From positions 30,003,499-30,067,498 of the forward strand of contig NC_092676.1 of assembly GCF_964355755.1 (NCBI RefSeq): a DNA stretch of 64,000 nt, read 5' to 3'. This document shows positions 373 through 62,400 of the stretch, one piece after another. The stretch's first letter is position 1, and each line of letters starts with the position of its first letter. A program made the translations under genes and the position numbers. The notes beneath the pieces are model-generated. The model was not told the DNA's origin, did no database searches, and saw nothing but the letters and a program-made list of their open reading frames with translations. The stretch comes from Antedon mediterranea. Its lineage: Eukaryota; Animalia; Echinodermata.

Positions 373-1016
373 GTGAGTGACAACCCTGGCACTATGTCAG
401 GATTGAACCCCGGCACTATGTCAGGATTGAACCCTGGCACTATGTCAGGATTGAACCCCGGCACTATGTCAGGATTGAACCCTGGCACTATGTCAGGATT
501 GAACCCCGGCACTATGTCAGGATTGAACCCCGGCACTATGTCAGGATTGAACCCTGGCACTATGTCAGGATTGAACCCTGGCACTATGTCAGGATTGAAC
601 CCTGGCACTATGTCAGGATTGAACCCTGGTACTATGTCAGGATTGAACCCTGGCACTATGTCAGGATTGAACCCTGGCACTATGTCAGGATTGAACCCTG
701 GCACTATGTCAGGATTGAACCCTGGCACTATGTCAGGATTGAACCCTGGCACTATGTCAGGATTGAACCCCGGCACTATGTCAGGATTGAACCCTGGCAC
801 TACAGTATGTCAGGATTGAACCCTGGCACTATGTTAGGATTGAACCCTGGCACTATGTCAGGATTGAACCCTGGCACTATGTCAGGATTGAACCCTGGCA
901 CTATGTCAGGATTGAACCCTGGCACTATGTCAGGATTGAACCCCGGCACTATGTCAGTATTGAACCCCGGCACTATGTCAGGATTGAACCCCGGCACTAT
1001 GTCAGGATTGAACCCC
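373..1016. repeat. 30-bp minisatellite, ~21 tandem copies (unit ACTATGTCAGGATTGAACCCYGGC…); one copy has a 5-bp insertion
   Basis: Direct reading: near-identical 30-mers with C/T variation at one position. The ORF-track 'proteins' on both strands here (NPGTMSGL…, PGFNPDIV…) are repeat translation artefacts. Confidence 0.95.
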
Positions 1017-12977: not shown

Positions 12978-14225
12978 AGAAATACTGTTATATGGTAGTT
13001 AATAATTAGGCAAAAGCCTTACTTTTATTTACTGTAACATTAAAAAAAAACCTCAAATATGTTTTTATTTCATTTCTAGGTAAGAAACAATAATTAATAA
13101 TAAACAAATAAATTTCCAACATAATTAAAAATAGTATTTTATTAATTTTTCTCCATTGTATGATATATTTTTTAGTATTTTGTATTATTTAAATCAAAAT
13201 GTGTAATAATAAATTATTTTTTCTATTTTCAGGAAAAACAGTGAAGATTGCAAGAGTTCCTGCTAGAATATGTAAAAAACAAAATGTATAACATTTATTA
13301 AGAAGCAGATGTTATTTTAAATTTCTTTAGAACTGCTTCATAATGAACAATGTCTTTCATTTACTAAATTTGTATCAATGGCCACCTGTTGCTGCAGGGT
13401 TTAGTGTCAATGGCCACCTGTTGCTGCAGGGTTTAGTGTCAGATGTAGATCTTTATTTTTACTGTATTTATATTATATCAATAGAAAGCAACAACATTAT
13501 TTATAATAAAACTTATTTTGTCGCTATGGCTTCTTGTGTGCAGTGCTTATTCACTACGAGGTTGATATTCAATGCAAAATATGTTATTTCTAATTATTTT
13601 AAATTTTTTTAAAATATAAATTCATATAAAATTGTTTCAACGTGTATTTTTCACCTTCATGAAAAACGAAAATTTGATTTCAAAAATAAATTCATATAAA
13701 AATACAAATTCTATTGTAATTAAAATATTTCATTTTGGAATGTTTGACACATTTAAGTAAATTGAAGACATTTAGGCTTTTTCTAAACTTTCACACCCAA
13801 GTAAGTACAATGGTAGTTAGATAATATTTACACATTAAACAATCAAAACTGAAATTCTCACTCCGATGTCTTAAACATTTTATGTATAATTAATGCTTTA
13901 TAATACTGTATTTAATTCAATAATTTACTAAAATGTTAAGGTTTAAGTTAAAATATTTGGTTAATAATTTGCATTTGCACATGGCAATCAAAAGGGAAAA
14001 AGAAAAATCACAATATGTTCATCAGTTTCATTTAGAAAACGTAACATGGTAGCTGTGCTCTGGATGTTGAGTACCAACAACATGAATTTGACTCTGAAAA
14101 ACAAAACATGTTTGTGTAAAATAACTACATAAAGCATTTTAAATTGGCCGAAATTTTGATATTGCTAACAAAAATATTTTATCGTAAAACTAATTTATTT
14201 GTTTGACTGGATTTTAGTGGTAACC

Positions 14226-33264: not shown

Positions 33265-36200
33265 ATGGACAAACTATCAAAGATAGTAATTTTGTTGGTT
33301 ATTTATAGCATTTTTATGAGCATCGGATATATCAAATATTACGGAGAACGACCAATCAACAAGCTTCCAACAACATCATGTTGCCGCTCAGACTCTAATA
33401 CGACGTCAGCTAAAAAAGGTAGACCTATAGGATTGTTTACGGTACGAGAGTAGAAGTTATGAAACATGGTTATAGCATTGAGTACCGACTTACTAATCTT
33501 TCCTGGGTGATGGTAGTCATTACTACTTTATTATTACGTCACAGTATTGTTATTGGGAATCCCAACAAAGGGGTTTCCTAATCGTAATAAAATATAGTAA
33601 TGTATGCGTACATTATCTTTTATGTATGTTTTTGTTTAACATTTAGCATTTTCCTAATATCAGAATTATTAGATTGACTGTCAGGCTAGAGGTATTCCCA
33701 ATCCCCCGAGTGATTTTCATTTTCTTGTTTTTTGTTTGCAGGCCTAATTTTCACCTTTATTATGGCAATTAGAGTTACGAGCATTTATTAACTTTACCTT
33801 TGATCCAGCCTCCCTAATAGTTTGCATACAACGTGTTTCTTATTTTTTATGATGGCGATCGATGTCCTGTAATTGTACTTGACGTGAATAGCCATTCATT
33901 ATAGCTTATTCAAATACATAGGCCTTGGTACCTCAATAGACACCATACCCTAAGCAAACAATTTGTAAAGAGAGATTTATTTTCATATACCGATTGGCAA
34001 ACGTAGGCATAACAATGGTTAAGTGGCTTGTATTATAATTGTAAAGTGTACTGAAATGATATATGGTATTTGAATATGATTTTAATTTTACAGAGAAATT
34101 GTTTCTCGATAAGAAATCAAGTGACATGAACAAGTTTATTTTGCCAATCAAATCAGACTCGAAAAACAAGAGTGGGCCTAATAGTATGCCTATTATTAAA
34201 TCAACGAATGGTCGACGAAAGTTTCCTAGGAGGAAAAAGAAGAGATTTTTTTATTGGGAAGAATTAAAACAGACAATGCATTATCTACCTTTAGGCAGCA
34301 CATTTGATACAAACACGGTGAGTTGTATGCATTATCTACCTTTAGGCAGCACATTTGATACAAACACGGTGAGTTGTATGCATTATCTACCTTTAGGCAG
34401 CACATTTGATACAAACACGGTGAGTTGTATATAAGAAAATATGTCATGATTACAAATTTGAATGTTATTACATACTATATAATGAATTTAGGTATTACAC
34501 CAAACGTTTTGAATGTTATTACATACTATATAATGAATTTAGGTATTACACCAAACGTTTTGAATGTTATTACATACTATATAATGAATTTAGGTATTAC
34601 ACCAAACGTTTTGAATGTTATTACATACTATATAATGAATTTAGGTATTACACCAAACGTTTTGAATGTTATTACATACTATAATGAATTTAGGTATTAC
34701 ACCAAACGTTTTGAATGTTATTACATACTATATAATGAATTTAGGTATTACACCAAACGTTTTGAATGTTATTACATACTATAATGAATTTAGGTATTAC
34801 ACCAAACGTTTTGAATGTTATTACATACTATATAATGAATTTAGGTATTACACCAAACGTTTTGAATGTTATTACATACTATAATGAATTTAGGTATTAC
34901 ACCAAACGTTTTGAATGTTATTACATACTATATAATGAATTTAGGTATTACACCAAACGTTTTGAATGTTATTACATACTATATAATGAATTTAGGTATT
35001 ACACCAAACGTTTTGAATGTTATTACATACTATATAATGAATTTAGGTATTACACCAAACGTTTTGAATGTTATTACATACTATATAATGAATTTAGGTA
35101 TTACACCAAACGTTTTGAATGTTTTAAAGAAATTGATGTCTGCCTTTGCAAGTTTCTTGCCGAGTCGTTCAAACCTGCTACAATCTTGCTTGGTGACTGC
35201 ACTGTGACGTCATTCACTGGCTGTCAAACTTCCGAGCAGAAATAAAACAAGAAAACAATGTATAGATATTACAACACTATAATATTGTTAAATCGTTACA
35301 TTTTGTGTATCTAGGAGGAACGAATAATCTTCAACCGGGTACCTAAGTGTGGAAGTCGAACTGTTTTAGATATTTTCAAATATTTAGCGAACAGAAACCA
35401 GTATAATATGATAAGCTCTACAATATATGGCCCTCTTCATCTACCAGAAAATAAAAAGGTAATGTTTTAAATTTGATTCAAAACAATGGTTCTTTTGTCT
35501 TTAAAAAAAAATTTCTGTGAAGTCATCTATATTGGCAAAAAATACGGTTTTCTTTTACGTTCACACCACCCCATGGTAGGACTAATATAAGCCAGTCGTG
35601 ATGGTATAGCGCTTTGATGTTGGATGATTATGATTCAACAACAATTGTTACAAGGGACGACAAAATATAGAGCACACGTATCATAGGTCATATTACAGTT
35701 AAAGTTATTTAATGTTGATTGATTTTTGTTTATCTATTTGTCACAATTTAGGCTTTGATAAAAGAATTAATTCTGGCGGCGGAACCTCCGGTTTTATTCC
35801 AGCGTCATATGCATTTTTTAAGTTTTCCAAAGTAAGTAGGTACTCTTCCCTGATACATAATTTAATCCGATAATCAGCTGTGTCGTGTGTGCGTGCGTGC
35901 ATGTTTTGGTTGGTTTTGGCTTAGGATGAGGGAAGTCAATAGCAAATGCACGACGCACAGTAATGTATCGAAAGTAGTCCTTAGCTAGAAAGAAAAAAAA
36001 AATTCATTATTACCTTATCCATAGCTCATCAAGAGTTAGATATATAAACATAATTCGAGATCCCATAGACAGGTTCATATCGGAGTACTACTTCATACGT
36101 TTTGGCGACGACAGAAATCCTATGAACTTTTCGGGTACAGATCAAGAGAAATATCAGGTAATTCTAATATTATTTATTTGATTGGTTGTAATTTTGACCA

Positions 36201-38460: not shown

Positions 38461-40998
38461 GGGGAGAGTGGGGTTGGTTGAATCGGAGGCAGGTTGAATC
38501 AGCCGTATTATTTCAGAAATTACAATTGGGTAAAAATTTGGTTGAACTACCTGGCAATTGGCTGACGTCACTCTACACGCTCACCAAAAATTATTCCGAT
38601 ACACGCTTGTTAACCTATTGTTCTAAAAATCCAGCTCGATTTGTGCCTGTAAGTACATTTTCCAATTTGTAAAGATTTTCGTTTTGTTTATTTATACTGA
38701 TTGTTTTTCCTGAAATCTTTAGTAGTCTTATATAACACATATATTAGGGTAAAATATTATATGATAAGCTTCTTGGTTGAGCCACGTATTTTTTTTCTAT
38801 GACACGAATTAATGCTGTCTGTGCCTATGGGGTTGGTTGAATCAGGTGATGCAACCTACCCCATCACGTGATGCAACCAACCCCAAGATAATAATGTGCA
38901 TTGTTTATGTTAATTTATGTAGTTTTAAACTTTTTCAACTCAATAATAGTAACTATAGAAATGTTCTTATACAGAATAGAAATTTAAAGATGTAAATTGT
39001 AAGAAATTAAACTACAACTACACTAGGCCTAGCCTAAAATTACAGTATTATTATTATTAAGTATTGTAAAAATATAAATAAACATCTTTCAAATAATTTA
39101 CTGTATTACTATAGGCATAGTTATTAAAATTAAATGATGGAGGCTACTATAGCCTATAGGGCCTAGTATACGACTGCCAGCGCTACCTATTTTTTTGTTA
39201 ATTCTAATGATCTTTCGTTTGCATTTTTCAGTTATCAACATACAGTCATGCCTAGAACTCATAAGAGAAAAACCGAACGGGGGAAAAACCCAGAAATGTT
39301 AAAACGAGCAGCACGAATTGTGATATTGGAGAACCTGTCTGTAAGATCAGTGGCAAAAGACTTTGATGTCAATTACAGTACACTCCAAAGACTTGTCAAC
39401 AAACTAAAGAAAGGTATGGATATTAAAATGTATGAAAATATAATAAGGTATTAAAATATTACTATTAGCTAACTGTATACATTAAACTATATTTTCAGAT
39501 GCCGATGGTGCTTTGAATTACCCTCTTGAAGTGACAAGAGCATTAACTGACACACACGTTGGATATGTCCGAAATCGACAGGTGTTTAGTGACAACCAAG
39601 AGGAAATGCTGGTTCAATATATATTGAGAGCTGCTGCTATGTATTTTGGTTTGACGCCGGATGATGTAAGGAAGTTTGCATATGAGCTAGCCATAGCATA
39701 TGAAGTAGATTTGCCACAAAGTTGGACTGAAAACCAGAAAGCAGGGAAGGATTGGTTTTGTTCTTTTTTGAAGCGTCACCCAAATGTTAGTATAAGAGCT
39801 GCAGAAGCGACAACTGATCAACCAGAAGCAGAAGATGAGCCAATTGCAGAAAATGAGCCAGTGGCAGAAAACGAGCCAGTAGCAGAAAATGAGCCATTGG
39901 CAGAAAACGAGCCAGTAGCAGAAAATGAGCCAGTGTCGGAAGATGATTTTGAAATTCCACCACCTATCAATGCAAGTCAACTATCAACACCCAATGAAAT
40001 TTTAGAGGATGAACCGTCCACATCTGCTGCATGCCGAAGATTGCCATTTAGCCCGGAAACTATTCGGCCATTTCCAGTTGCTCCACCAAGAAAAAACAAA
40101 GGCCATGGCAGAAAAACTTTAAAATCTGCAATTCTGACCGACACCCCAGAAAAAGAGGCAATAATGAAAAGGAAATCTGCAAGTAAAAGTAAGGGTAAAT
40201 CAAAATCGAAGTCGAAAACGCCAAACAACACTCAAAAAGAAAAACCAAGTAAGGAAACTGACTGGTATTGTGAAATTTGTGGAGAAAGCTACTCAAATAG
40301 CAAACAGGGAGAAAAGTGGGTAAAGTGTTTAGCGGAGGGTTGTGAAGAATGGTCACATGTGGAGTGCACCGAAAATGGACGCACATTCATTTGCTCGGTT
40401 TGCGAGTAACCAGTTTTTCATGTAAACATAAACATTTACTGTATATACTTAATTACATTTTTTGTTGTGCCAAGTTTGTTCCTGTAATTCTAATATATTA
40501 TTTTAAACAACTCAAATAAACAACTTAGGCTAGTTAAAAAGCCTAACTCTTTAAACAATTCATATTTATGTTATGGTGCTTTTTACGTGTAATAATAACT
40601 AACATTTTAAAAACATAATAGTGCAGCAGCTTTATATATCAGGAAATAGTTTTTTTAATAGTAGTTTATTAATTAATATATATTTGTTATAATGTGGTTT
40701 TCATCTTAATAAATAAATATTAAAGATATCATTGTATTTATTACATATTATTTCATGATTCAACCAACCCCACTATGTGATTCAACCTACCCCGATGAAG
40801 GGGTTGGTTGAATCGGTCGACTCATCTTGGTAATTTGCTTCTAACTTCTAAATATGTTTTCTGATGTCCATATAATTCACTGTGTTGCCTGAAGGAATGT
40901 TAGTGAACATACACTGTTAATTACAGCTTAACCAATGCAACCAAAAAAAAATTATGGTCAAAAATAGAAAATTTGATTCAACCAACCCCACTCTCCCC
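38461..40998. mobile_element. pogo/Tigger-like (Tc1-mariner superfamily) DNA transposon derivative, 2538 bp, 24-bp perfect TIRs, TA target-site duplication
   Basis: Left end TA|GGGGAGAGTGGGGTTGGTTGAATC (38461-38484); right end GATTCAACCAACCCCACTCTCCCC|TA (40975-40998) is an exact reverse complement. Subterminal hairpin copies of GGGGTTGGTTGAATC at 38825-38885 and 40755-40830. Internal ORF encodes CENP-B/pogo-type DNA-binding domains. Confidence 0.7.
39248..40409 (+). CDS. Element-encoded protein, 358 aa, 2 exons (39248-39413, 39499-40409): psq-type HTH + CENP-B/Tc5-type HTH, acidic EPVAEN repeat, C-terminal C4HC3 (PHD-like) zinc finger; no DDE catalytic domain
   Basis: ATG 39248. MLKRAARIVILENLSVRSVAKDFDVNYSTLQRLVNK (psq HTH). 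Donor AAAG|GTATGG, acceptor ttttcag|AT. RQVFSDNQEEMLVQYI…LTPDDVRKFAYELA…QSWTENQKAGKDWFCSFLKRHPNVSIRAAEATT (HTH_Tnp_Tc5/CENP-B). Six 18-bp repeats GAGCCAGTAGCAGAAAAC. Ends WYCEICGESYSNSKQGEKWVKCLAEGCEEWSHVECTENGRTFICSVCE*. Confidence 0.7.
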
Positions 40999-44400: not shown

Positions 44401-47400
44401 AAACTCTCCAATTACAGGATGGATAAACTATTACGAATTATCATGCTTATAAACTAAGTCTCATTTGAAGCTTAAGCTTGGTTCCCACTAGAACGTAACG
44501 CAAGGACGTAAACGCAACGCAATCGTTTTAACCAATGACAAGCGAAGTTATAGACAGTTAGCAATCACAAGCGAATAAGCCATCGCTTGTGATTGGTCAA
44601 TTCACTTGCGTTGCATTACGTCCTTGTGTTGCGTCGCTAGTGGGAAGGAACCACGCTTCAGGGAGTGGAGTTGAAAAAGGTGTGAGTTAGCTACAGCTCC
44701 ACTATTTGGCAGAATATTTTAAATAAAATTCAATGTGGTGTTTTTAAGCTTTACATTTACTGTCCATTGTTATGATCTTTTAACATTTCTACCTTAATTA
44801 TAATTTTTTCAATTTAGTGACAGAGGAAACAGCATATGAGCGGCAGTATACATACGACAGTACGATCGAGGAAGATGAAAACGGTTGTGTGCGTGTACTC
44901 ATGCGTATCAAACCAATTATTACAACACCGCCACCAACGTACAATCCATACAAAGCTTTACGTAAGACAGAAAAGTACATAAATGCGAAGACTTGTATGA
45001 ATGCAAACACTACAGGATTCTACACACAACCTATTCAGCCAATTAATTGGAAAGATTTCAATATTACAATTTTGTTCACTGGTAGGCACATTTATTCTGC
45101 AATATATAAATATTTACCAATTATTTACATTGTTACAGGGATCTTACAGAGAAAAGTAATTTTCTGTAGTCGCAAGACCCTTTGAAAAAATCGTATTATC
45201 TTAACTTGAGAAAAAAGTGTCTGTTTGACATGAATATAAATAATAAAATCAAATTATTTGCATTTTTTGTTTACAAATATCATAATTGATCTTGTTTTAA
45301 CTTTAAATTTGTAGGTGAAATTTTCAACTATGTTGAAGTAAATCAAGTTTTAGTTTCAGAAGTTTATGTAAACATAACACAAAGTACTAAACTCATTAAC
45401 CAAATAAGACGTGTATTTGGTAAGTAAAGTTTTTAAACTTCTTTATCTCTTCTTTAATAAATAAGTTCAGTTTTAGGATAGAATTGTTTTGATATTTGAT
45501 TTTCCGTTAATTTGTTATCTTTCTATGAGACAGGCACCATTATTTCCACTTGTTTTGTGAATGAAATAAAGTTAACTTATCTTAGAAATATAATTTCTTA
45601 ATGTTTTTAAATTTTTAGCCATTCAAAAAATACCAATAAAAAGACCAGGTTACTGGGTATACAACAATCCAACATTTTCCGATCGTAATTTCACCCTGAA
45701 ACATGAACAAATACTTCACCACGGTGTTTTGATCCACCCCGAAGCGTTCAACCGCGGTTTCACCATGACGATTGATGTTCCAAAGGTTGATGATGTATAC
45801 TTGGCCAAATTTGAAAACATCACACCATGGTGGAAGACGGGAAAACATTTTGCAGCGATATCAGATTACCATATGTTTAATTCAACCTATAATACAAATG
45901 GCGACGAATTAACTTTGGAAACTGTAATAGATAAGATGGAAGGTTATTATGATGGGGATAGCAGATTGCCAGATATCACTTCTGAATGGGTTGTCGAACA
46001 AAATGATTACGGAGAAGAAATAATTGTTCAGTGTATATTTTCCGTCACACCATTTCTCAATATTAAAGATGTTGTTTGGCGCGACCACGGAAGATTAAAT
46101 TTTTATTTGTATTCTCGAGTTCTTTCATCAGTGGTGGCTGATAATGAGCTTAAATTTTCTATCACAGCCGATTTTAAGTTCCCACCAGGAGATGAACTAA
46201 TTCTGTATGCGTCTAGGACGAGCACCGTGACTGTTCAACCGTTTGTGCCACGTATTCCGCCAGTCAATGCCACTCAGGAACCAGACTGTCAAGATGACAT
46301 CACATATACTTTTGAATTATTCAACATTCTGGAATTTTCTATCAAGGATATCTGGATGAACGTGACTTGTCCCGATTTAGTTATCATACCGTCGACGCTT
46401 GAAGTTGAAATTATTCACCATGTTAATGTCACAAGTGATAGCAACGCTGATATCATGCTTACTACAGATCAAACATATCACATACATTACACAGAGTTGG
46501 CTCCTCAAGTACTTGCAAGAGGGCAGCAGACATTTCGACTGGTCAACAACGGTATTGCGCCGCATTACTCCATTGTTTGCAAAGTTTATCTTTCATTTCG
46601 CAAGGATAATAAGGCGTTAGTCCTTCCATATTTGGCAGGTGTCAGTAATGAACTGTTTACACCTGGCATTGAGTATATTTTATATGGGCGTGATTTAATT
46701 GAGAAGGAGGAGGAAGTTATGATATTGACAACACCAATGAGTAGGACTACTGTGTTGTTAGGAAATGCCACAGCTGAAATTCCTATTATGGTGGATGAAG
46801 AAGTAAGTTATGGCGTGGAAGAAGAGACAACACCTCTAATGTACTCGATGCCTGTTGGGTCAAATGCAACATTCATTATAAATATAACAGTACCAGAAAT
46901 AACCACAGAGGTCAGTGGTAAATAGTAGTAGTACTGTAAGATCTATTTTCCAATGATGCACATGTCTAAAAAGCTCTGTCAAATCAAATTAGTTTGTGTG
47001 CCCAAATATGCTAGTGATATGCTTAAATATGGTAGTGATATGCCCAAATATGCTAGTGATATGCTTAAATATGGTAGTGATCAGATTGCATTAACATTTA
47101 TTTGGAACAGTCCTAGAAAAAAGGTAAAAAACAAGCATATATTTACAATAAGTTAAATGAGTTACATCATAATATCCATATATGGACACATCTCATTTTT
47201 CTTGTCAAACTGGTTTGATAGTGTAGACAGAGCTCAATTGTTAAAATGTACTTTTTAAATGTTGATCTTGATTTTATTTTGTGTATATTAATTATACAGT
47301 AGTAGTTTTTAATTATGCAAAAATGTGTCATTATTCCTTCTATTCAATAAGATTTCATCTTTTTTTAGATTGAAATTTATTTTGGTATGCCAGCAGCAGT

Positions 47401-50400
47401 GTTAGCTGTCTATTATTCCAGAATCATATTTATTGGTGGAAATATAATAAACCTGGATATGGTTGATCTTGAGAAAGGAAGCGATATCATGGGTAAGAAT
47501 GGACACAGTGCTTGACTGTTAGGAGCAGAACAGTCCTTCAGGCCACCCATATTAAAAGGACACCCCTATTAAAGGGACACATGTTCCCACATTGCTGCAG
47601 GTCTTTCTGAATTACTGTATATGAGCCTCCCCCACATGATTATTTCATTGTATTTATCCTGTATGTTATTATATTGTGGTAATAAAATTAAATTGAAATA
47701 TTGATTGGTAAAAATCACAGAAGCCTGATGTTAAACTATAATTAGAACCCTGAAAATTGAACCCCATTTATTTTGTATTATTTGAATGTATTTCTTTAAA
47801 GAATCATGGGACATGACTACCAGAACAAACTTAAAACAGAAACTGGGAAACTTAACCAATATTGCAGATAATTTAAGAAACGAAAGTGGTAAGTTTCCTT
47901 AATATTCTTAATACAGCTACATCATATCATGTTATGATGCTTGGCTACCAATCCAAGGGTCCTGGGTTTAAGTCATATATGTTAGGATTTTTTCTAATGA
48001 CAAATTACAACTCCACTCCCAAAGACTTGTAATAAGACTTATGTCTATACTTAGATTAGTATATTCTTTATTTTCTCATAGATAACATTGTTCTTGAGTT
48101 TAATGTTGTACTCCTGGATGAAAAAGAAACAGTTGTAAAAGATACAGAACATGAGTTTAAGACAACTGTGATTTACACAAATGGACAAGACTTAGTACAG
48201 CAACAGAGTGTAGCAGTATTAGAACCTGACATCCAAGTGTATTTGAGAGTAGCCAATGAAAGCACAAATGCAGATCCAGGTAATGTACTGACATTACTAA
48301 TATGTACTCACTTTTCCAGCTCACATACATGTTAGCATTCTATCATTACTAATAAGTACTCACTTTTCCAGCTCACATACATGTTAGCATTCTATCATTA
48401 CTAATACGTACTCACTTTTCCAGCTCACATACATGTTAGCATTCTATCATTACTAATACGTACTCACTTTTCCAGCTCACATACATGTTAGCATTCTATC
48501 ATTACTAATAAGTACTCACTTTTCCAGCTCACATACATGTTAGCATTCTATCATTACTAATACGTACTCACTTTTCCAGCTCACATACATGTTAGCATTC
48601 TATCATTACTAATACGTACTCACTTTTCCAGCTCACATACATGTTAGCATTCTATCATTACTAATACGTACTCACTTTTCCAGCTCACATACATGTTAGC
48701 ATTCTATCATTACTAATACGTACTCACTTTTCCAGCTCACATACATGTTAGCATTCTATCATTACTAATAAGTACTCACTTTTCCAGCTCACATACATGT
48801 TAGCATTCTCTGCATGTTGTCATAAACAAACACTTGAATATTCAAGAGTTTTAGGTGAACAAAATTATTATTAGTGAAATATTTCAATTTTTAAAATGTT
48901 CTGTTTTGTTTATTACTGATAATTGTTAATAAATAAAAAAAATATGTTTTAAATGCTGTATCAAATCTGTAACTTTTTATATAGGTTTAAGTTGGCTTGT
49001 GAGCCATAGACCTTTCTTGTTCAAACATCATTATTGAGCACCTTTAAGTCACTCTACTCAAAACTCACATTTTCTGATGTTTTTGGCTGCTCCAGGAGCA
49101 ATGACTGGAATGGATTGATTGATGGAAAAAAATAAGTGAATGAAAATGATTTTGACTTTTTTGTACTAGGTGAAATCTTCCAGTATTATATAAAAGTAAA
49201 TCACACGTCAGTATCGCAGTCACCAGCCCACCACATAAATGTTACCATCCATCTACCATATATGATCATAAACAAACACTTTCTGCCTTATGAATATTCA
49301 AGAGTTCCAGTCAGAGGTAAAAAATTTGAACCAGGCTTTGAATATGAAAATGATGAGATTTTGCTACTGTACCTCTATAAACTAGATTTGGATGAAGTCA
49401 TCGAAGGAACATTTCTTGTGCAGATAACAACGAAACTTATGGAAGGTAAACTTAAAATTTGTGAATATGTTATGAAAAAAAGAGAAAAAAAAGAGATATT
49501 AAACTTTTTAAATTGTATGATGTCAATCATGACGTAATTTTGTACTTTATACTAAGTAAGTATGGGGGAATCAAGCCCATCCTCTACCTCTATACCACCA
49601 AGCCTGCCCTGATGGCTAGGGGTTAGATTTTCGAATCAAAGTATAAGCAGCGTTTTGTTTAAACTGTCTACACTATCAAACCAGTTTTACAAAAAAAGTG
49701 TAATGTGCCCAAATATGGTAGTGATGTGACACCACCATGTCCATATATGTACATTTTTTTGTCACATTTTGCAGGTATTTGTTTACAAGCTCAAGTTAAA
49801 TACGAAATGTCTAGTTTCTACCAGTGGGGGCGGTACTACCCTTACACAACAGTAAGTGAAAATGTCCTCAACATTCGCAATGCAACTCTTAAATTTATTG
49901 GAACTTCTCTTCACGATACTCCTGACAAATTGGTTGCCATCCATGAGCAAGTTACATACAGAATTACCATACCTCTGCCTCCAATATCCAGCAACCTAAC
50001 CATAGAGATATTCCTACCTACACGAAATGTAACACGAAAGATCTGGGAAGTCTTACAAATACAAGAGGAGATTCCAGAGGTCCTGCCAATCGAAGAAACT
50101 TTTTTTGATAATGGCTGCTATACTGTGATGAGACCATGCTTTTGTTATGGAGCTGGAAATATGTCTTTCGATGCCAGCTGGTTTATTTCGCGATTTACTT
50201 GTAAATTGAAAACTGACCAGATGTGTACCAACTCGACAGATTTGGACACCGGAGAAAGCAACATAACAAATTGTGATTACTCACCAGATGTGTACAGCAA
50301 ATGTCGAAATTTATCTAAAGAGATGTGTTTCCAAAATGAAAATGTGACCACTTATCTACAAACTCCAATATCACACTTTCAACAGATGGCTTGTAATATG

Positions 50401-53400: not shown

Positions 53401-56400
53401 GGCACGTTCTCTTTAGCTCTCCGAGATGATGTTGATTTCGTTGCCAACAGTATCATCAGCGGAACAGGAATCCTATGGTATGATAGCTGTGTTGTAGACT
53501 TTCCTGGTCGTCTGTATGGTCCAATCAATTCCTCAGACATCTGCCATATCTATGCACCAAACATCACTGCCAAACTAGAATTCACCACTGCGTATGCATA
53601 TATGTATCAAAATGAAGAGTATGGCATACCAAACACTTTCTCCATTGGTGACTATGTTGACATTCGTGCACATCTGTGGGTTCCTGAAATCACGTTAAAT
53701 GTTGCTAATTACAGCATCAGTGGAGATAACATGTTCTCTTTCACACCAGTGATGGCGGTGATGTTGTTGACGGACAGGATCTACGTAAGAAATGACACTG
53801 CCACATTCTTTCTAGATCAGCGTCACAATCCGCATGATAATGAATTCCACATTCTCTATCCTGATGAACAGTATGACACAGCGGAATTCACAGACAAGGG
53901 AATTGCGTTTATACCAGGTAAACAGATTATGAGTTTAATTTTAGAGTATATTAAGCTCTTTCTGCACACTATCAAACTATTTTGACAAAGAAAAGTGTGA
54001 TGTGCCCAAATAATATGCCCTAATAATATGGTAGTGGTGTGACATCAGACTTTGTTTCCTTGTACTAGTCCCATATCCCTTTATAACGTTACACCATATA
54101 ACTCTTTTAAACATTTATGACTGTTTTTGTTTTAGGTGTTCTAGTAAACCAAGCAGATAATATAGCATCACCTGAAGATTATCTCCTGTTAAAGTTCATA
54201 TTTACTTTAAAAGATGACCCACTCTGGAAACAAGATGACATCATACCCTTCACAGTATCTGTTGTATACTACAGTGATTATGACGGACAACTTTTGACAT
54301 TGATTGACAAGAATGTTGAATTAAAGGTCGTTGAACCCAGACTGACACTTAGAGTTGAGGTAAAGTCTAATGTGCAGTTAAAAATGCTACTGAAGTTCAT
54401 TATATACTGTGCCATCATCAAAAACATTCACCTACCTTTTTTGTGTTTTAAAATTTAAAAAAAAAAAAAAATACAGTGGCTTAAAAGCTATAAGCAATCA
54501 CTATGGCTAAACCCAGAAACCCTAAAGGTTAAGTGCTCCCAGAGTATGAGCAGCCCAATGTAACTACCCAGCGTTTGGGGTCTTCTCCATGGCTGTTCTT
54601 AATCTTTACTATTTGACTTTCAGATTCTTGATTATAAGTGGCAGGTTGAACAAGTACAGAACACAACAGGTTACACTTGTGTAGAGAACACTTGTTGTGA
54701 AGATGGTGAGCCTTGTGATACAGGCCGTGTGTGTGTTACAGACTCTTCTGATATGGACAATTGTGAGACTCACAGGTACTCCTGCACCACATACTCCTAA
54801 TACAATAATTTGTCTAAAGCTCTCTCTACACTATCAAACTTTATGTGACAAAAAATATATGGACACATTTGATGTCATATCACTACCATATTTGTGCACA
54901 TCACACTTTTTTTATCAAACTAGTTAGATAGTGTACATAGAGTTAAAATGTATTCTGCAAATATGTCTTGTTTAACCCTTTTGCATAAAAATGTATATCT
55001 GCTGTTTAAAAAAATATCAACACTATTCCATTCCAGGTGTTTATGCTATTCTGGATTTGCATTGAATGCTGAATCCACCTGTACTGCTGTGGGACGTACT
55101 GCTGGTGATATACTCGTGTTTGGACTGACTGTATTTCACAGCCAAGAATATACTGGTTAGTAGGCCTAAATAGTGAATTGAATAGATTGCAAACGAATTC
55201 AGTTGATTTTAAATAAATATTTTCATTTCAGGTAATGCATTTGATCTTTACATAACGTTATACAGTGACCTCAAGTCTGACCTTCTACCAGATACTGACA
55301 CAATGGGTCACATCCCTACAGATGGTTACCTTGGTAATGTAAGGAAACCACGATTAACACAAATAAGTGACCACGAATTTCAACTTTATGTTCATCGTTT
55401 TGATCATGTAGTGAGCTGCGAACGTTTTACAGTGCCATTCAGGATTAAGCCTTCTTTACATGTGTTTGCAGGGCAAACTTGGGAAGTGGAGGTAAGATTT
55501 TTGGCACCAGTCTACCTATCTAAGCTTGTGCTTATTTACCAGCCTACTAGATCTCTTAGATCAGGTGGCTAATGTCTGCTAGTAGACTAGTACATCTACT
55601 ATGGTGGACAAGCTTTTGGTAGCAGCTCCAATGTGGAATTCCTTACCAATTTAAATCAGACAGTGTGCTACTTTAAACTTTTAGACCCAGTTGAAGTCTT
55701 TCTTTTTCAAGTTATTGCCATCTATTTTAATTTATGTACAGCGCATTGAGAGCTTGCTATATGCGCTACAATATATAAGAATGAACTATTATTTATAATA
55801 AGTTGTCTAGATTGTGAGGACCAACATTTACATGTAATGAAATATTCTTTTTTTTGTAGGCAACAATGAATTACCGTTCTTCTAAGCCGTATGACACGCC
55901 ATTCAACATTAAATCACGACTGTATGACATGAAAGACATGAATGATACAATCCGATTCCCATTATTCGCTCCAGCCCCAAGTGTTCGCTTCAAAATGTTA
56001 CCATCAAGTGGTCAATCTAGCCCAATAAATTTTGAAGTTTTCTCTTCTTCTATGGCTCAAAATGAAGTCATGGTGAATGTACGAGAAGAAGATAAAATTG
56101 TGTTTCAGGCCGAAGTTGTTATACCAAAGATTAAGTGCAGTATGACTTTTAAATTAAATCTACCAGAAGGTAAAAGATTACTTGATTACTTCTTAAGTCT
56201 GGAACCATAATCCATATTTAAGACTACATTGATACATTAAGTATAATAAAGAAAATCAAATCAGTTCATTGAGTTCTTCATTTTTATCCATTTCTTAGGG
56301 AGTGGCATTACACTGGAAAATGTTACCATGGTTTCCATGGGTACTGCAATAGATTTTCCGGAAACTAATTTTGGTGAACCACAAGTGACAGAAAGCATTG

Positions 56401-59400
56401 ATGGACAAAAGTTCTTTTTTGCCTATTTTCCTGATATACACAGTAAAGCAAACACATTGAATACTCCACGGGTAATGTTATTTTAATTTTTTTTTAAATA
56501 TTTCTTTTCAAAATTTTCATTTTCAAAATATATATGTACTGTATATTCGGCAATAAGTGTTGACAAATTTTACCCTTTTCTGTACTATATGCTGTAGTTT
56601 TTTTCCGAAAAATATGTTAAAAGTTGTTAATTTATATACTGATATCAAATATTACAAAACAAAAATTTGTGTTTTTAAGTCTTTAGATTCCACCAAGCAG
56701 CAAATGTTCAAGTCAATGAACGGAGAACAGCAGCCGTACCCAACAAACCCAGAATGCAATGCTCTCAATTCCAGTTTATACGAGCAGACAATTCTTCTAG
56801 GGTGTTACCATAATAAAATGTCTTACTTTGGCGGTTTTATAACAGACATGCACCCATCTTTACCTTTCTACAATCTATCTCAAGTGATGACAAGGCAGTT
56901 GTGTTTGGATCATTGCAGGTAATGATTCTCATAGACTATATTTCCAACTTCTTCATTGTCATACTATCAACAATTGATTATTGATTGACAGAACTATGAG
57001 GCCCACTAGCTAGCCTACTGTAAAGTAGTGGCTGCGTGTGTGACAGTGGCTGAACTAGTACACCGGGGTAACCTCCTACTCGTCTTGAAAAATGTACTGG
57101 GTTCTTTAAAGTGCACATGAGTTAGATGTGTACACTGGACCTATGGTTTATAGTTCCTTATCCGAGAAGACTCTACTCTACCACCAGAACCATGGAGCGA
57201 GTGAGCCTCGAATGTGTTTTAATCTCTCTGCCAGGTCACTCGCTCAACATACATACATGCTATCAAGAATCTACCAATAAAACTCCTTTTTCAATCAATA
57301 AAATCAATCAATCAATGTCTTGATGAACTTTCAAATCAGTAATAGTGTGTATTTATACTTCCTAGTGATAGAAGATATGATTATGCAGGCCTGCTGAAGG
57401 GTGCTATCTGTTTGTGTGGGACTGAAGAGCAATTCATGCAATACTATCAAAATAGAACATTTGAATTGAATGGCACTTTACATCATGCAACCCTTGATCA
57501 TTGTAGTACACTCTGTACAGGTACATAAAGCTCTGTCTACACTACAACCCTTGATCATTGTAGTACACTCTGTACAGGTACATAAAGCTCTGTCTACACT
57601 ACAACCCTTGATCATTGTAGTACACTCTGTACAGGTACATACAGCTCTGTCTACACTACAAACTAGTTTGATGCAACCCTTGATCATTGTAGTACACTCT
57701 GTACAGGTACATAAATCTCTGTCTACACTACAACCCTTGATCATTGTAGTACACTCTGTACAGGTACATAAAGCTCTGTCTACACTACAACCCTTGATCA
57801 TTGTAGTACACTCTGTACAGGTACATACAGCTCTGTCTACACTACAAACTAGTTTGATGCAACCCTTGATCATTGTAGTACACTCTGTACAGGTACATAA
57901 AGCTCTGTCTACACTACAAACTAGTTTGATGCAACCCTTGATCATTGTAGTACACTCTGTACAGGTACATAAAGCTCTGTCTACACTACAAACTAGTTTG
58001 ATGCAACCCTTGATCATTGTAGTACACTCTGTACAGGTACATAAAGCTCTGTCTACACTACAACCCTTGATCATTGTAGTACACTCTGTACAGGTACATA
58101 AAGCTCTGTCTACACTACAACCCTTGATCATTGTAGTACACTCTGTACAGGTACATACAGCTCTGTCTACACTACAAACTAGTTTGATGCAACCCTTGAT
58201 CATTGTAGTACACTCTGTACAGGTACATAAAGCTCTGTCTACACTACAAACTAGTTTGATGCAACCCTTGATCATTGTAGTACACTCTGTACAGGTACAT
58301 AAAGCTCTGCCTACACTACAAACTAGTTTGATGCAACCCTTGATCATTGTAGTACACTCTGTACAGGTACATAAAGCTCTGTCTACACTACAAACTAGTT
58401 TGATGCAACCCTTGATCATTGTAGTACACTCTGTACAGGTACATAAAGCTCTGTCTACACTACAAACTAGTTTGATGTGTCTACTGTATATATGAGCACA
58501 TTGCATTTTTGTGTCATAAAAAGTTTAGTGTAGACAGAGCTTTAGACCAGGGAGTTGTAAAATTATTTTACAACTCCCTGTTTAGAAATACTTAGTTTTA
58601 TATGTTAATTTGACCAGGGAGTTGTAAAATTTTACCACTCCCTGATTTGACATCCTAGATTTTTTTCATGTTATATATTTCAAAGTAAAAGTTTCTCTCT
58701 TTATTATTATTTTTTTTAAATTTCTTTTTTATAGTTCTATTATCAATTTATAATATTTTAGAGGACATAAATATTGATTGTTTTATTGAATTTCGTTCTT
58801 TTTTTAAAATGTATGTATCACTATGATACATTCTGTTTGGATTATCTTTTTACGTAACCAATTACATTGTGAATGTGTGTGTCTTTTAGGTGAAAATGCC
58901 TCTTGTGGGTCGATGGAATTTGCTTTACTGTATGGTCCAATACCTGGATCTGTTCCTAAACAACAATGTGACTGGTATTCAGGATTGTATGATGAAACTG
59001 AGGTATAGCAATTGTCTAATCTGTAAATTTGATTATATCATTATAACATAATATAACATTGATAACAGCACAGGTATTTAATTATATTAATATTCGATAA
59101 ATTTAATTTTTAGGATGTGTTTGTGGTAGAATTCAGTTTATCAATTCATTCATTGGCTACTAAGGGTATAGAGGAATACCTACACTTACAAGTAACATAC
59201 GATCATGGAGAAAACAAAACAAGCACACTTCTACCGTTAGCCCCCTATAAAATAGAGGTATGCACATTTATACTTTCACTGAGGACGATCGAAGCATATT
59301 GATAGAATTTAACTTTTCAGAACTGCATACGTGGTGTACTGCATACGTGGTGTACTGCATACGTGGTGTACTGCATACGTGGTGTACTGCATACGTGGTG

Positions 59401-62400
59401 TACTGCATACGTGGTGTACTGCATACGTGGTGTACTGCAAACGTGGTGTACTACATACGTGGTGTACTGCATACGTGGTGTACTGCATACGTGGTGTACT
59501 GCAAACGTGATATTACATTTATATATATCTTGGTATCTTTATTTATATACACATAATAAAATGCATTTTTTGCATTTTTTACAATAAAATTACAACAATA
59601 TTAAAATGACATAAAAAACTTAAAATTTATGTATTTATACTGTCTTTGATAGTGAAATTGTTTATGTTGATAGATCTGATTAGACTTGAACTTGAACTAC
59701 ATTCATAATAAAATGTCTTTATTTGTAGACTGGAATAGTTAAACTTTTGATGAATGTTTATGTATCTCCAAAAATGAGTGGCTATGTTCCAGGGTATGTT
59801 ATTTTACATTATTAATACAAACATTTATAATGTGTTCTGCCTTCAATATACTGGAGGTATACAACAACATTAAAAAACACTTCTATTTTAAAGTACTATT
59901 TATTTTATAAAACAAAAACAAAAATTCCATTTTTTATTTTATTTTGAGACAAGTTTTTTACTTCGTAACCAATGATGGCATTCCTTTCTCTTATTTAGCT
60001 TTTCTTGTTTTTGTATTGTATTACTGTTTCTTATTGTTTATTATTCTTGTATTATTTGTCTTACCATTATAGAATATAATATATATATATAGTTTAAAAT
60101 TTTACCAAATAATATATTTTAATTTTTTCAGCGATTATTTAGAATATTATACAGAGGTTCGTCATGCTGCTCATTCAACCGTGACTGCGAGGGATGTTTA
60201 CATTTTGTGGATGTTGCCTAGTTACATAGAGTATGTAAATGTAACCAATCACCCATCACTACCATTTACATATAGACACATTGAAGATGTTGAGAATGTT
60301 GAAACTGACCCTAGAGTTGGAATCAAGTTTTATGTAAGTGTAATAAAATTGAAAATAGAGCATGAATACAAATTTATGTGTTACAAGAATGTATTTTGTA
60401 CTGTATATATTTGTACTGTCTTTCTTTTCTATTGGACAAAGTTGCAGTAACTATAATATACTATGCCTTAATAATACTACACTTATCTACTTTTGTTACT
60501 GAGAAGTTAGTTATCTTAAAAATGTTTCAATTAACTGTACCTTATTTTAATAAACTGCACAATTTGTCAATAAACTGTACAATTTTTCAATTAACTGTAC
60601 AATTTTTCAATTAACTGTACAATTTTTCAATTAACTGTACAATGTTTCAATTAACTTACCTTCTTTTAATAAACTGCACAATTTGTCAATAAACTGTACA
60701 ATTTTATAATTCACACTACAATTTTTCAATTAACTGTACAATTTTTCAATTAACTGTACAATTTTTCAATTAACTGTACAATTTTGAAATTTTTTGAAAA
60801 TTTAAAAATGTTTAAGTAACTGTACACTTTTTCAATTAACTGTACAATGTTTCAATTTTAACTGTGTTGTATATTCCTCTTCAGTTAAAATTAATCTAAT
60901 TTGTTTTTGTGACAGGTGAAAACCTTATTCCATGATGACGTGATAGGCTTTCACTTTATGGTGAGACTGGACCCACTTCACACCCTTCCACAGGGAGAGT
61001 ACCATTTGATGTCAATGACACAGGTGTATTATGACTCTTGGGGGATACACAACCATTTTGAGGAAGACTACACGTTTGATGTTGTACCCCATGCTCATCC
61101 TGTTGTACCTATTAAAATTACATTTGAAGGTAAATTCATTCCATGTCTTTAAGTTGAAAGGGAGCTTGTTTAGATAAGTTAACATTTGCTGTTGGAACAA
61201 TCAATAATGTGTTATTTTGGTTCTATTATAGTTCCATCTAAGTATTCAGGACGTGAACAATTGGATGGTGAGAAAGATTTTTTTATAAATTTCTTGTTTG
61301 TTATAGGATATTACATATATACAGTTTTCTTGTTGAATATATTTTTTTTTTTTTTTTTACAGATATTAAATTATCAACCTATAATGTTCTGTATGATGAG
61401 ATTAACAACATTGTGTATGCTTGTTTCTTCAACAATACCATTAATGTGTAAGTTGATCTATATTAATTGAAATGTAATCTAATTCAGAAATTTAATGTGC
61501 TATACTACTTTGCTTTAATACAATAATACAGTTATACTTATGCTATAGTATAATAATACAGTTATGCTATAGTATAATAATACAGCTATGCTATAGTATA
61601 ATAATACAGTTATGCTATAGTATAATAATACAGTTAAGCTATAGTATAATAATACAGTTATGCTATAGTATAATAATACAGTTATGCTATAGTATAATAA
61701 TAAAGCTATGCTATAGTATAATAATACAGTTATGCTATAGTATAATAATACAGCTATGCTATAGTATAATAATACAGTTATGCTATAGTATAATAATACA
61801 GCTATGCTATAGTATAATAATACAGTTATGCTATAGTATAATAATACAGCTATGCTATAGTATAATAATACAGTTATGCTATAGTATAATAATACAGTTA
61901 AGCTATAGTATAATAATACAGCTATGCTATAGTATAATAATACAGTTATGCTATAGTATAATAATACAGCTATGCTATAGTATAATAATACAGCTATGCT
62001 ATAGTATAATAATACAGCTATGCTATAGTATAATAATACAGTTATGCTATAGTATAATAATACAGTTATGCTATAGTATAATAATACAGTTATGCTATAG
62101 TATAATAATACAGTTATGCTATAGTATAATAATACAGTTATGCTATAGTATAATAATACAGTTATGCTATAGTATAATAATACAGCTATGCTATAGTATA
62201 ATAATACAGCTATGCTATAGTATAATAATACAGCTATGCTATAGTATAATAATACAGTTATGCTATAGTATAATAATACAGCTATGCTATAGTATAATAA
62301 TACAGTTATGCTATATTACTGCTAAAGCTATGCTAAAAAACTTATAGTTTTTTTTTTCAGTTATAAAGGTGGTTGTTTCATGACTGGAGATCTTCCATCC

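What the first reader, a model, noticed from the sequence alone, without database searches (positions are those of the whole stretch)
57372..58548. An exon 3' end plus its splice donor amplified ~18-fold in tandem, seeded by a MITE insertion
The tandem unit is the last 32 nt of exon 25 (…TLDHCSTLCTG), the GT donor (gtacat) and ~20 nt of MITE-A terminal repeat (aaagctctgtctacactaca). Some units additionally include aactagtttgatgc. The array runs immediately downstream of the genuine donor, so the intron contains ~18 perfect copies of the authentic exon-end/donor context. This sets up massive cryptic-donor competition in a WSC-domain exon. In the exon's frame each extra unit ends in TAA two codons after the junction. 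It points to MITE-mediated slippage or unequal crossing-over at an exon-intron boundary.
Basis: seen in the sequence. Interest (0 to 1): 0.75.

Follow-up and report, generated by a model that had tools for sequence, protein, structure and literature searches.

The report
Splice-donor minisatellite built on a MITE junction
A 990-base tandem repeat in an intron copies the last 33 bases of a real protein-coding exon, its splice signal and the tip of a small transposon 15 times over; this is real, but it is the same kind of "splice-site minisatellite" already described in several human genes, where the cell usually just uses the first copy.

Summary
Window 57488-58477 is a head-to-tail array of 15 units, not about 18: six of 57 bp and nine of 72 bp. 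Each unit carries 33 nt of exon end, the donor CAG|GTACAT, a TAA target-site duplication and 16-31 nt of a MITE terminal repeat. The exon (57366-57520) is genuine. Three spliced exons give a WSC domain above Pfam's cut-off, and the collinear Ptychodera flava locus has the same junction (TGTACAG|GT, phase 1, Gly codon). That ortholog's intron is 295 nt, with no array and no MITE. The MITE family is real, with about 11 copies in the window. Only the last unit runs on into the rest of the element, so the array postdates the insertion. Unit junctions show 3-nt microhomologies (ATG, CAA), and variants form 186/330-bp higher-order blocks, which points to slippage followed by unequal exchange. That the MITE caused the duplication is only inferred, because this window is 9% minisatellite anyway. 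Minisatellites whose first unit spans an exon-intron boundary are known (human F7, IFI6, CBS, LMNB2, PDGF, ABCA7). In those genes the most upstream donor is used almost exclusively, so "massive competition" is not the expected outcome. I file it as a new member of a known kind, of moderate interest.

The parts
56700..56918 (+). 3' part of the preceding exon, encoding the first part of the WSC domain (...LLGCYHNK...QLCLDHC). It ends at donor TTGCAG|GTAATG.
   Evidence: ORF frame and Pfam WSC match. The Ptychodera ortholog has TTGCAG|GTCATT at the same position. The 5' boundary of this exon was not determined.
57366..57520 (+). Genuine 155-nt coding exon, the middle of the WSC domain: (S)DRRYDYAGLLKGAICLCG...TLDHCSTLCT(G). 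Acceptor is cctag|T; the exon ends in phase 1 inside a Gly codon.
   Evidence: The spliced product of three exons matches Pfam WSC PF01822 at E=1.6e-8 and 35.1 bits, above the 27.8 cut-off, over profile positions 3-81 of 82. The orthologous Ptychodera flava exon ends ...CNVTCT(G) with TGTACAG|gttagt, at the same position and phase.
57518..57526 (+). Authentic 5' splice site CAG|GTACAT, with the GT at 57521-57522.
   Evidence: Reading frame and WSC continuity across to 58890. Junction conserved in Ptychodera. It matches 7 of 9 positions of MAG|GTRAGT. The C at +4 is off the GTAA-rich pattern of this gene's other inferred donors.
57488..58477 (+). Tandem array of 15 units (6 x 57 bp, 9 x 72 bp). 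Unit order is S S L' S* S L' L L S S L' L L^ L L. Unit 1 is the authentic exon end. Higher-order blocks are S-S-L' (186 bp) and S-S-L'-L-L (330 bp).
   Evidence: TRF; unit parsing and variable columns.
57578..58444 (+). Span holding the 14 reiterated pseudo-donors CAG|GTACAT. Their GTs start at 57578, 57635, 57707, 57764, 57821, 57893, 57965, 58037, 58094, 58151, 58223, 58295, 58367 and 58439.
   Evidence: All are identical to the authentic site from -33 to +7. Using any of them would give an exon of 212-1073 nt with an in-frame TAA at 57526-57528.
57526..57528 (+). TAA that is both the left target-site duplication of the MITE and the first in-frame stop (GGT ACA TAA). It is repeated in 12 of 15 units and reads TAC in units 3, 6 and 11.
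58444..58544 (+). The complete local MITE copy: TAA, then a 95-nt element with 16-19-nt terminal inverted repeats (AGCTCTGTCTACACTA...TAGTGTAGACAGAGCT), then TTA. Its left 19-34 nt form the 3' part of every array unit. It contains the 12-nt palindrome CAAACTAGTTTG, 3 nt before the 72-bp unit breakpoint.
   Evidence: Inverted repeat and family copies. Hairpin fold z = -5.6.
58545..58644 (+). Two copies of a local hairpin (CAGGGAGTTGTAAAA / TTTTACAACTCCCTG) that abut the right end of the MITE. They are intronic and not part of the array.
   Evidence: 4 arms, found only in this intron.
58890..59002 (+). Next exon (113 nt), the end of the WSC domain: (G)ENASCGSMEFALLYGPIPGSVPKQQCDWYSGLYDETE. Acceptor is ttttag|G, donor GAG|GTATAG.
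   Evidence: Ptychodera counterpart is (G)DSNTTCGGRDYITIYGP....

Best explanation
This is a young intronic minisatellite whose first unit spans a real exon-intron boundary.

Order of events:
1. A short Tourist-like MITE inserted at a TAA 5 nt into the intron. This left the donor hexamer GTACAT intact. (Shown.)
2. A 72-bp tandem duplication then arose, running from 33 nt inside the exon to 34 nt inside the MITE, with an ATG microhomology at its junction. (The junction is shown. Replication slippage or template switching is inferred, possibly helped by the adjacent 12-nt palindrome and the MITE hairpin.)
3. A 57-bp unit arose either by a 15-bp deletion between CAA repeats or by a second duplication at CAA. 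(The junction is shown; which route was taken is open.)
4. Unequal sister-chromatid or allelic exchange, or slippage in register, expanded the array to 15 units. This included block duplications of 186 and 330 bp, marked by a shared A->C variant. (The pattern is shown; the process is inferred.)

Consequence (inferred by analogy with characterised human cases): the spliceosome still uses the first, authentic donor almost exclusively. At most a small share of transcripts uses copy 2 or 3. Those transcripts carry the in-frame TAA and would be removed by nonsense-mediated decay. The array is therefore a near-neutral or mildly deleterious by-product of a genome that makes minisatellites readily, not a device.
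For: - Array anatomy and perfect conservation of -33..+7 in all 15 units.
- Exon authenticity: WSC domain across three spliced exons. The Ptychodera flava locus is collinear, with identical junction position and phase and the shared end TGTACAG|GT.
- The ortholog's intron is 295 nt with no tandem repeat and no MITE, so the array is derived.
- The MITE family is real: about 11 copies in the window, with TAA target-site duplications on complete copies.
- Only the last unit is contiguous with the rest of the MITE, and the right terminal repeat is single.
- Junction microhomologies can be read directly from the sequence: exon ...CATG|CAACCC against MITE ...GATG|TGTC, and MITE CACTA|CAAACT against exon ATG|CAACCC.
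- The higher-order structure is marked by the A->C variant in units 3, 6 and 11, each preceded by two short units.
- Minisatellites are abundant here: 19 arrays covering about 5.9 kb of 64 kb, six of them in this gene's introns. The Ptychodera locus has about 0.36 kb in 40 kb.
- Precedents: in F7, LMNB2 and PDGF only the upstream donor is used. In IFI6 and CBS two pseudo-sites are used in addition to the authentic donor (PMC1557585). In ABCA7 there is minor use of the second unit's donor (PMC5954066).
Against: - No transcript data, so which donor is used is inferred from mammalian cases. The organism is an unidentified invertebrate whose splice-site selection rules may differ.
- The donor is off the local consensus (C at +4), so it may be more sensitive to competition than a strong site.
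- There are no reads, so copy number and even the presence of the array in the living genome cannot be confirmed.
- A causal role for the MITE hairpin or palindrome is untested. Ten other copies of the family in the window carry no comparable array.
Confidence: 0.72

Rival explanations
1. One reading: the 14 identical downstream donors compete strongly with the authentic one. A large share of transcripts would then include array sequence, hit the in-frame TAA, and be degraded or give a protein truncated inside the WSC domain. The allele would be a hypomorph or on its way to becoming a pseudogene.
For: All 15 sites are identical from -33 to +7. The donor is not strong, with C at +4 and A at +5. 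ABCA7 shows that the length of a donor-containing VNTR can alter splicing and produce stop-containing isoforms. In F7, donor use shifts when upstream sites are weakened.
Against: In every characterised case the authentic, most upstream donor dominates. With long units (81-100 bp; LMNB2, PDGF) it is the only one used. F7 pseudo-sites do not compete even when they are strengthened to a consensus value of 91. All flanking exons of the gene are intact and conserved with Ptychodera, although a young array would not yet have left decay.
Confidence: 0.15
2. Assembly artefact: the array, or its length, was produced by mis-assembly of a short duplication, and the real locus has one or a few units.
For: Near-identical 57/72-bp units are the kind of sequence assemblers get wrong. 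No reads are available to check.
Against: The array has ordered internal structure: two unit lengths, three private or shared variants, and 186/330-bp blocks. It has clean microhomology junctions and a last unit that runs seamlessly into the rest of the MITE. The same contig resolves 18 other arrays, including a 24-bp x 32 array and a 51-bp x 13 array. That argues for a long-read assembly which handles such repeats. Even a two-unit version would still be the same phenomenon.
Confidence: 0.08
3. The array is functional and retained by selection. It could act as a length-tunable switch between productive and decay-targeted splicing. It could be a U1 snRNP loading platform in a long intron. Or it could be a spacer that moves the MITE hairpin, whose stem began at intron +6 in the single-copy state, away from the authentic donor.
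For: In the reconstructed single-copy state the MITE stem starts at +6 of the donor. Both unit lengths are multiples of 3. VNTR length correlates with splicing outcome in ABCA7.
Against: The ortholog has no counterpart. The units are nearly identical, so the array is young and selection has had no time to be seen. Every frame-preserving read-through hits a stop. Folding of the whole intron gave no consistent picture of which copy pairs with the right terminal repeat. The high local density of minisatellites explains the array without any function.
Confidence: 0.05

Closest known systems
Human F7 intron-7 37-bp VNTR, and the same arrangement in IFI6 (6-16), CBS intron 13, LMNB2 (100-bp unit), PDGF intron 4 (81-bp unit) and ABCA7 intron 18 (25-bp unit)
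   Same: It is a minisatellite whose first monomer spans the exon-intron boundary, so the authentic 5' splice site is followed by many identical pseudo-sites in the intron. Copy numbers are similar (5-26), and the unit sizes here (57/72 bp) fall between those of F7 and of PDGF/LMNB2. Use of a downstream copy gives aberrant, often stop-containing mRNA (PMC1557585; PMC5954066).
   Different: Here each unit takes in far more exon (33 nt, against 4 nt in F7 and 0 in ABCA7). It is also a chimera that includes the target-site duplication and terminal repeat of a MITE, which fixes the order of events. The host is an unidentified invertebrate with a Ptychodera-like gene, not a mammal. Splicing outcome and polymorphism are untested here.
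MITE- or TE-derived tandem repeats and satellites (Xenopus Xstir and miDNA4, bivalve pearl/DTC84, Drosophila SGM and DINE)
   Same: A MITE's terminal sequence ends up reiterated in a tandem array. Microhomology-mediated repair and unequal exchange are the proposed expansion mechanisms (review PMC9659126).
   Different: In those cases the monomer is derived from the element itself and travels with it to many loci. Here only 16-31 of the 57-72 nt are MITE sequence and the rest is unique host exon and intron. The array is confined to one locus, and the other 10 or so family copies in the window lack it.
Microhomology-mediated tandem duplication followed by minisatellite expansion (replication slippage or template switching, then unequal exchange)
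   Same: There are 3-nt microhomologies at both junction types. Multi-unit higher-order blocks share a diagnostic variant.
   Different: Nothing distinguishes it mechanistically. This is the generic process, seen here at a splice junction.

Membership tests
Minisatellite with first monomer spanning an exon-intron boundary (F7 / IFI6 / CBS / LMNB2 / PDGF / ABCA7 type) | Head-to-tail array of several or more units of roughly 10-100 bp inside an intron | tested here: met
   15 units of 57 or 72 bp at 57488-58477.
Minisatellite with first monomer spanning an exon-intron boundary (F7 / IFI6 / CBS / LMNB2 / PDGF / ABCA7 type) | The first unit contains the end of a genuine exon and its authentic 5' splice site | tested here: met
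   WSC domain reconstituted across the junction. The same junction, phase and TGTACAG|GT are present in the collinear Ptychodera flava locus.
Minisatellite with first monomer spanning an exon-intron boundary (F7 / IFI6 / CBS / LMNB2 / PDGF / ABCA7 type) | Downstream units carry pseudo-donors identical to the authentic one | tested here: met
   All 14 extra units are identical from -33 to +7.
Minisatellite with first monomer spanning an exon-intron boundary (F7 / IFI6 / CBS / LMNB2 / PDGF / ABCA7 type) | Copy number polymorphic between alleles (VNTR behaviour) | not testable with these tools
   Only one assembly sequence is available. The higher-order blocks imply past unequal exchange, but that is indirect.
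Minisatellite with first monomer spanning an exon-intron boundary (F7 / IFI6 / CBS / LMNB2 / PDGF / ABCA7 type) | The most upstream donor is used, with pseudo-sites silent or minor | not testable with these tools
   No transcript data are available.
MITE (short non-autonomous DNA transposon), tentatively Tourist-like / PIF-Harbinger type | Terminal inverted repeats, small size, no coding capacity, multiple dispersed copies | tested here: met
   Perfect 19-nt inverted ends in the local 101-nt copy. About 11 copies of 100-167 bp in the window; the terminal repeat has 26 matches against 0.16 expected.
MITE (short non-autonomous DNA transposon), tentatively Tourist-like / PIF-Harbinger type | 3-bp TWA (TAA/TTA) target-site duplication | tested here: inconclusive
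   TAA...TAA at copies 12382-12548 and 54815-54946; TAA...TAT at copy 14943; TAA...TTA at the local copy. That is four complete copies, two of them perfect.
MITE (short non-autonomous DNA transposon), tentatively Tourist-like / PIF-Harbinger type | Terminal repeats shared with an autonomous element that encodes the matching transposase | not tested
   No such element was seen in the window. The only transposase-like ORF (39486-40406) has a Tc5/pogo-type HTH and no link to this terminal repeat.
TE-derived satellite DNA (monomer derived from, and dispersed with, the element) | The monomer consists of element sequence, and arrays recur at other copies of the element | tested here: not met
   Only 16-31 of the 57-72 nt are MITE sequence. 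No other family copy in the window carries the array.
WSC domain (Pfam PF01822) | Profile match above the gathering score, with the cysteine pattern | tested here: met
   35.1 bits against a 27.8 cut-off, E=1.6e-8, profile positions 3-81 of 82.

The most novel reading that the evidence does not exclude
The array may not be neutral. The reiterated donor-plus-terminal-repeat units could make expression of this gene depend on array length, as with the ABCA7 VNTR, by shifting the balance between productive splicing and stop-containing, decay-targeted isoforms. Alternatively, the expansion may have been favoured because it moved the MITE hairpin, whose stem started at intron +6, about 0.9 kb away from the authentic donor. 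Either way it would give a natural non-mammalian test bed of 15 identical 5' splice sites for 5'-to-3' scanning models against proximity models of donor choice.
Probability: 0.1. Interest if true: 0.6.

Novelty: new member of a known kind. Interest (0 to 1): 0.35.

Why it matters
- It is a clean example, with an outgroup for polarity, of how a minisatellite is born at a splice junction. The chimeric unit (exon end, donor, target-site duplication, MITE tip) and the Ptychodera ortholog that lacks both array and MITE together fix the order of events: insertion, then microhomology duplication, then block expansion.
- If transcript data exist for the source species, 15 identical donors spaced 57-72 nt apart would test whether the "most upstream site wins" rule from human F7 holds outside mammals.
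- For annotation, gene predictors and RNA-seq aligners can place the junction on any of the 15 copies. Reads need more than 37 nt of upstream overhang to tell copy 1 from a 72-bp copy.
- Beyond that it is an ordinary by-product of a repeat-prone genome.

Tried and rejected
- **Homologues of the three-exon WSC peptide:** a word-indexed protein search found nothing.
- **Source genome:** an exact-sequence look-up of the neighbouring sulfotransferase was not on record. The GH65-like ORF gave only hits of 53% identity or less, from mixed invertebrates. The organism therefore stays unidentified beyond sharing this gene with Ptychodera flava.
- **MITE family elsewhere:** a scan of metagenome contigs for the MITE terminus gave 0 hits.
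- **RNA folding of the whole 1.5-kb exon-intron region:** the aim was to see which left terminal repeat pairs with the single right one. The minimum-energy structure is dominated by unit-to-unit pairing and picked unit 8 arbitrarily, so it was uninformative.
- **Coding potential of the array:** rejected. The 341-aa (+) and 342-aa (-) ORFs through it are artefacts of stop-free frames in a period divisible by 3, and the exon's own frame hits a stop in every unit.
- **Other WSC exons in the window that could have donated the repeat:** none found.
- **Units acting as recursive splice sites (CTCTGTACAG|GTACAT):** the upstream 20 nt are only 60% pyrimidine, so this stays speculation.
- **Transposase-induced break repair as the origin:** less parsimonious, because the units span the element's end intact.
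- **TA (Tc1/mariner-type) target-site duplication:** rejected in favour of TAA, because copy 12382-12548 fits only the 3-bp reading.
Full report
**1. The observation**

Reading 56900-59100 and running Tandem Repeats Finder confirm a head-to-tail array at 57485/57488-58477. TRF reports periods of 57 and 72 bp, with higher-order periods of 186 and 330 bp and scores up to 1572.

The 39-nt core CAACCCTTGATCATTGTAGTACACTCTGTACAGGTACAT gives 15 units, not about 18. The exon-end peptide recurs only inside the array.
- Six units are 57 bp (units 1, 2, 4, 5, 9, 10).
- Nine units are 72 bp (units 3, 6, 7, 8, 11-15).
- The total is 990 nt.
- The 72-bp units carry the extra CAAACTAGTTTGATG.

The first 40 nt of all units are identical. 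Only three columns vary:
- A->C at intron +8 in units 3, 6 and 11
- G->T in unit 4
- T->C in unit 13

**2. The exon is real**

The coding exon is 57366-57520. Its acceptor is cctag|T and its donor is ACAG|GTACAT.

Spliced to the upstream exon (ending at 56918) and the downstream exon (58890-59002), it gives ...LLGCYHNK...QLCLDHCSDRRYDYAGLLKGAICLCG...TLDHCSTLCTGENASCGSMEFALLYGP.... That product matches Pfam WSC (PF01822) at E=1.6e-8 and 35.1 bits against a 27.8 cut-off, over profile positions 3-81 of 82.

A concatenate of three large upstream ORFs found one homologue: an uncharacterised 2433-aa protein of the hemichordate Ptychodera flava, at 36% identity. Its genomic locus (L002) is collinear with the window from about 42.1 kb through to the exons beyond the array.

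In Ptychodera the corresponding exon ends ...MSDCNVTCT(G) with ACCTGTACAG|gttagt. The next exon starts (G)DSNTTCGGRDY... This is the same position, the same phase 1 in a Gly codon, and the same last seven exon bases. The preceding intron is also positionally conserved: TTGCAG|GT in both.

The Ptychodera intron is 295 nt. It has no tandem repeat and no copy of the MITE. The window's intron is 1369 nt, of which 918 nt are extra array.

The 'exon 25' numbering could not be verified. The Ptychodera annotation splits the collinear region into two gene models, and the WSC exons fall in the second.

**3. The MITE is real**

The terminus AAGCTCTGTCTACACTA has 26 matches in the window against 0.16 expected. 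Outside the array there are about 10 further copies of a 100-167-bp element with inverted ends.

Complete copies are flanked by TAA...TAA (12382-12548 and 54815-54946) or by near-TAA. That fits a 3-bp TWA target-site duplication of the Tourist/PIF-Harbinger kind. The classification is tentative.

The local copy is 58444-58544: TAA, a 95-nt element, then TTA. It folds as a hairpin with z = -5.6.

The insertion point is the TAA at intron +6..+8. The donor hexamer GTACAT was therefore not altered. The in-frame stop GGT ACA TAA is the left target-site duplication itself.

**4. Anatomy of the unit and order of events**

A unit consists of:
- 33 nt of exon
- GTACA
- TAA
- 16 nt of terminal repeat, plus 15 further MITE nt in the long form

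Every unit has the left MITE tip. Only unit 15 continues into the rest of the element, and the right terminal repeat is single. The array therefore postdates the insertion; this is shown directly.

The 72-bp junction GATG|CAACCC shares ATG with the exon's CATG|CAACCC. The 57-bp junction CACTA|CAACCC shares CAA with the MITE's CACTA|CAAACT. These 3-nt microhomologies are the signature of slippage, template switching or microhomology-mediated joining; that reading is inference.

The 72-bp breakpoint lies 3 nt beyond a perfect 12-nt palindrome, CAAACTAGTTTG. The 15 nt missing from short units remove that palindrome.

The unit order is S S L' S* S L' L L S S L' L L^ L L. The A->C variant always follows two short units. 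This shows block duplications of 186 and 330 bp, that is, expansion by unequal exchange or in-register slippage.

**5. Did the MITE cause it?**

This is not shown. The window holds 19 tandem arrays, about 5.9 kb or 9% of its length. Six of them lie in the introns of this gene, and most have no MITE. The Ptychodera locus has about 0.36 kb of tandem repeat in 40 kb. None of the other copies of the family carries a flank array. The palindrome and hairpin make a local contribution plausible, but no more than that.

**6. Consequence for splicing**

All 14 extra donors are identical to the authentic one from -33 to +7. Using donor k would give an exon of 212-1073 nt that reads ...CTGT*.

The donor matches 7 of 9 consensus positions. 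It has C at +4, whereas this gene's other inferred donors are mostly GTAA[A/T/G]N.

The arrangement is a described class. Borensztajn et al. 2006 (PMC1557585) list human genes with a minisatellite whose first monomer spans an exon-intron boundary:
- F7 intron 7: 37 bp x 5-9. Only the most upstream site is used, even when pseudo-sites are strengthened.
- LMNB2 (100 bp x 10-15) and PDGF (81 bp x 16-18): only the authentic site is used.
- IFI6/6-16 (25 pseudo-sites) and CBS: two pseudo-sites are used in addition to the authentic donor.

ABCA7 intron 18 (25 bp x 12 or more) includes the exon-18 donor. It shows minor use of the second unit's donor and length-dependent splicing changes (PMC5954066).

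By analogy, the expected outcome here is dominant use of 57520|58890, with at most a minor stop-containing fraction. 'Massive competition' is possible but is not the default. There are no transcript data to decide.

**7. Comparison and novelty**

The array meets all the structural criteria of the F7-type class. Polymorphism and donor usage are untestable here.

It is not a TE-derived satellite in the usual sense (review PMC9659126). Most of the monomer is host sequence, and the array does not travel with the element.

What is new is the chimeric unit, the non-mammalian host, and the ortholog that fixes polarity. Hence my verdict: a new member of a known kind, of moderate interest.

**8. Caveats**

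- The organism is unidentified.
- Assembly error cannot be excluded without reads. The ordered internal structure, and the 18 other well-resolved arrays on the same contig, argue against it.
- RNA folding of the whole intron was uninformative.

Noticed in passing
window 48280-48809: A second array in the same gene (52 bp x 10, 98% matches) starts 13 nt after the donor CAG|GTAATG at 48279|48280. It does not include the donor. Each unit carries a strong acceptor-like TTTTCCAG and an A/C-variable ...TAA(C/A)GTACTC motif, giving ten pseudo-acceptors in one intron.
   Followed up: partly
window 61538-62315, 59322-59509, 60521-60857: Three further intronic minisatellites in the next introns of the same gene: 24 bp x 32, 16 bp x 12 and 20 bp x 17. 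The 24-bp array ends about 45 nt upstream of the acceptor of the large terminal Cys-rich exon. In all, 19 arrays cover about 9% of the window, against about 1% in the Ptychodera locus.
   Followed up: partly
window 46999-47237: A copy of the same MITE family whose internal motif (AAATATGGTAGTGATAT-like) is itself tandemly repeated (21/42-bp period). The family seems prone to internal tandem duplication.
   Followed up: no
window 58545-58644: Two copies of a 15-nt-stem hairpin (CAGGGAGTTGTAAAA / TTTTACAACTCCCTG) directly abut the right end of the MITE. The motif occurs nowhere else in the window. It may be a second small foldback element or a local duplication.
   Followed up: partly
window 57470-58495 (+) and 57478-58506 (-): Mechanical ORFs of 341 and 342 aa run through the array on both strands, because both unit lengths are multiples of 3 and two frames lack stops. 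They could be mis-called as genes.
   Followed up: yes
L002 33877-34958 versus window 57366-57520: The orthologous Ptychodera exon is 1082 nt against 155 nt here. It carries a Cys-rich insertion of about 310 aa between the CxCG motif and the C...C.G end of the WSC domain.
   Followed up: no
L002 10001-30167 and 31251 onward; window about 55500-55870: The Ptychodera annotation splits the region collinear with the window's exon series into two gene models (2433 aa and 2567 aa). The second starts at a Met that is conserved in the window (ATMNYRSS at about 55860). One long gene or two adjacent genes: unresolved.
   Followed up: no
window 2624-3913; about 7000-13000; 39486-40406: Other content of the window: an intron-less 429-aa sulfotransferase ORF (Pfam Sulfotransfer_1 and _3); exons of a GH65 / PGGHG-like glucosidase; and an ORF with a Tc5/pogo-type HTH and an 18-bp in-frame repeat (PVAENE).
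   Followed up: partly
window 382-1015; 34276-35123: Large, very homogeneous arrays outside the gene: 24 bp x 26, and two adjacent, unrelated 51-bp arrays (x3 and x13).
   Followed up: no
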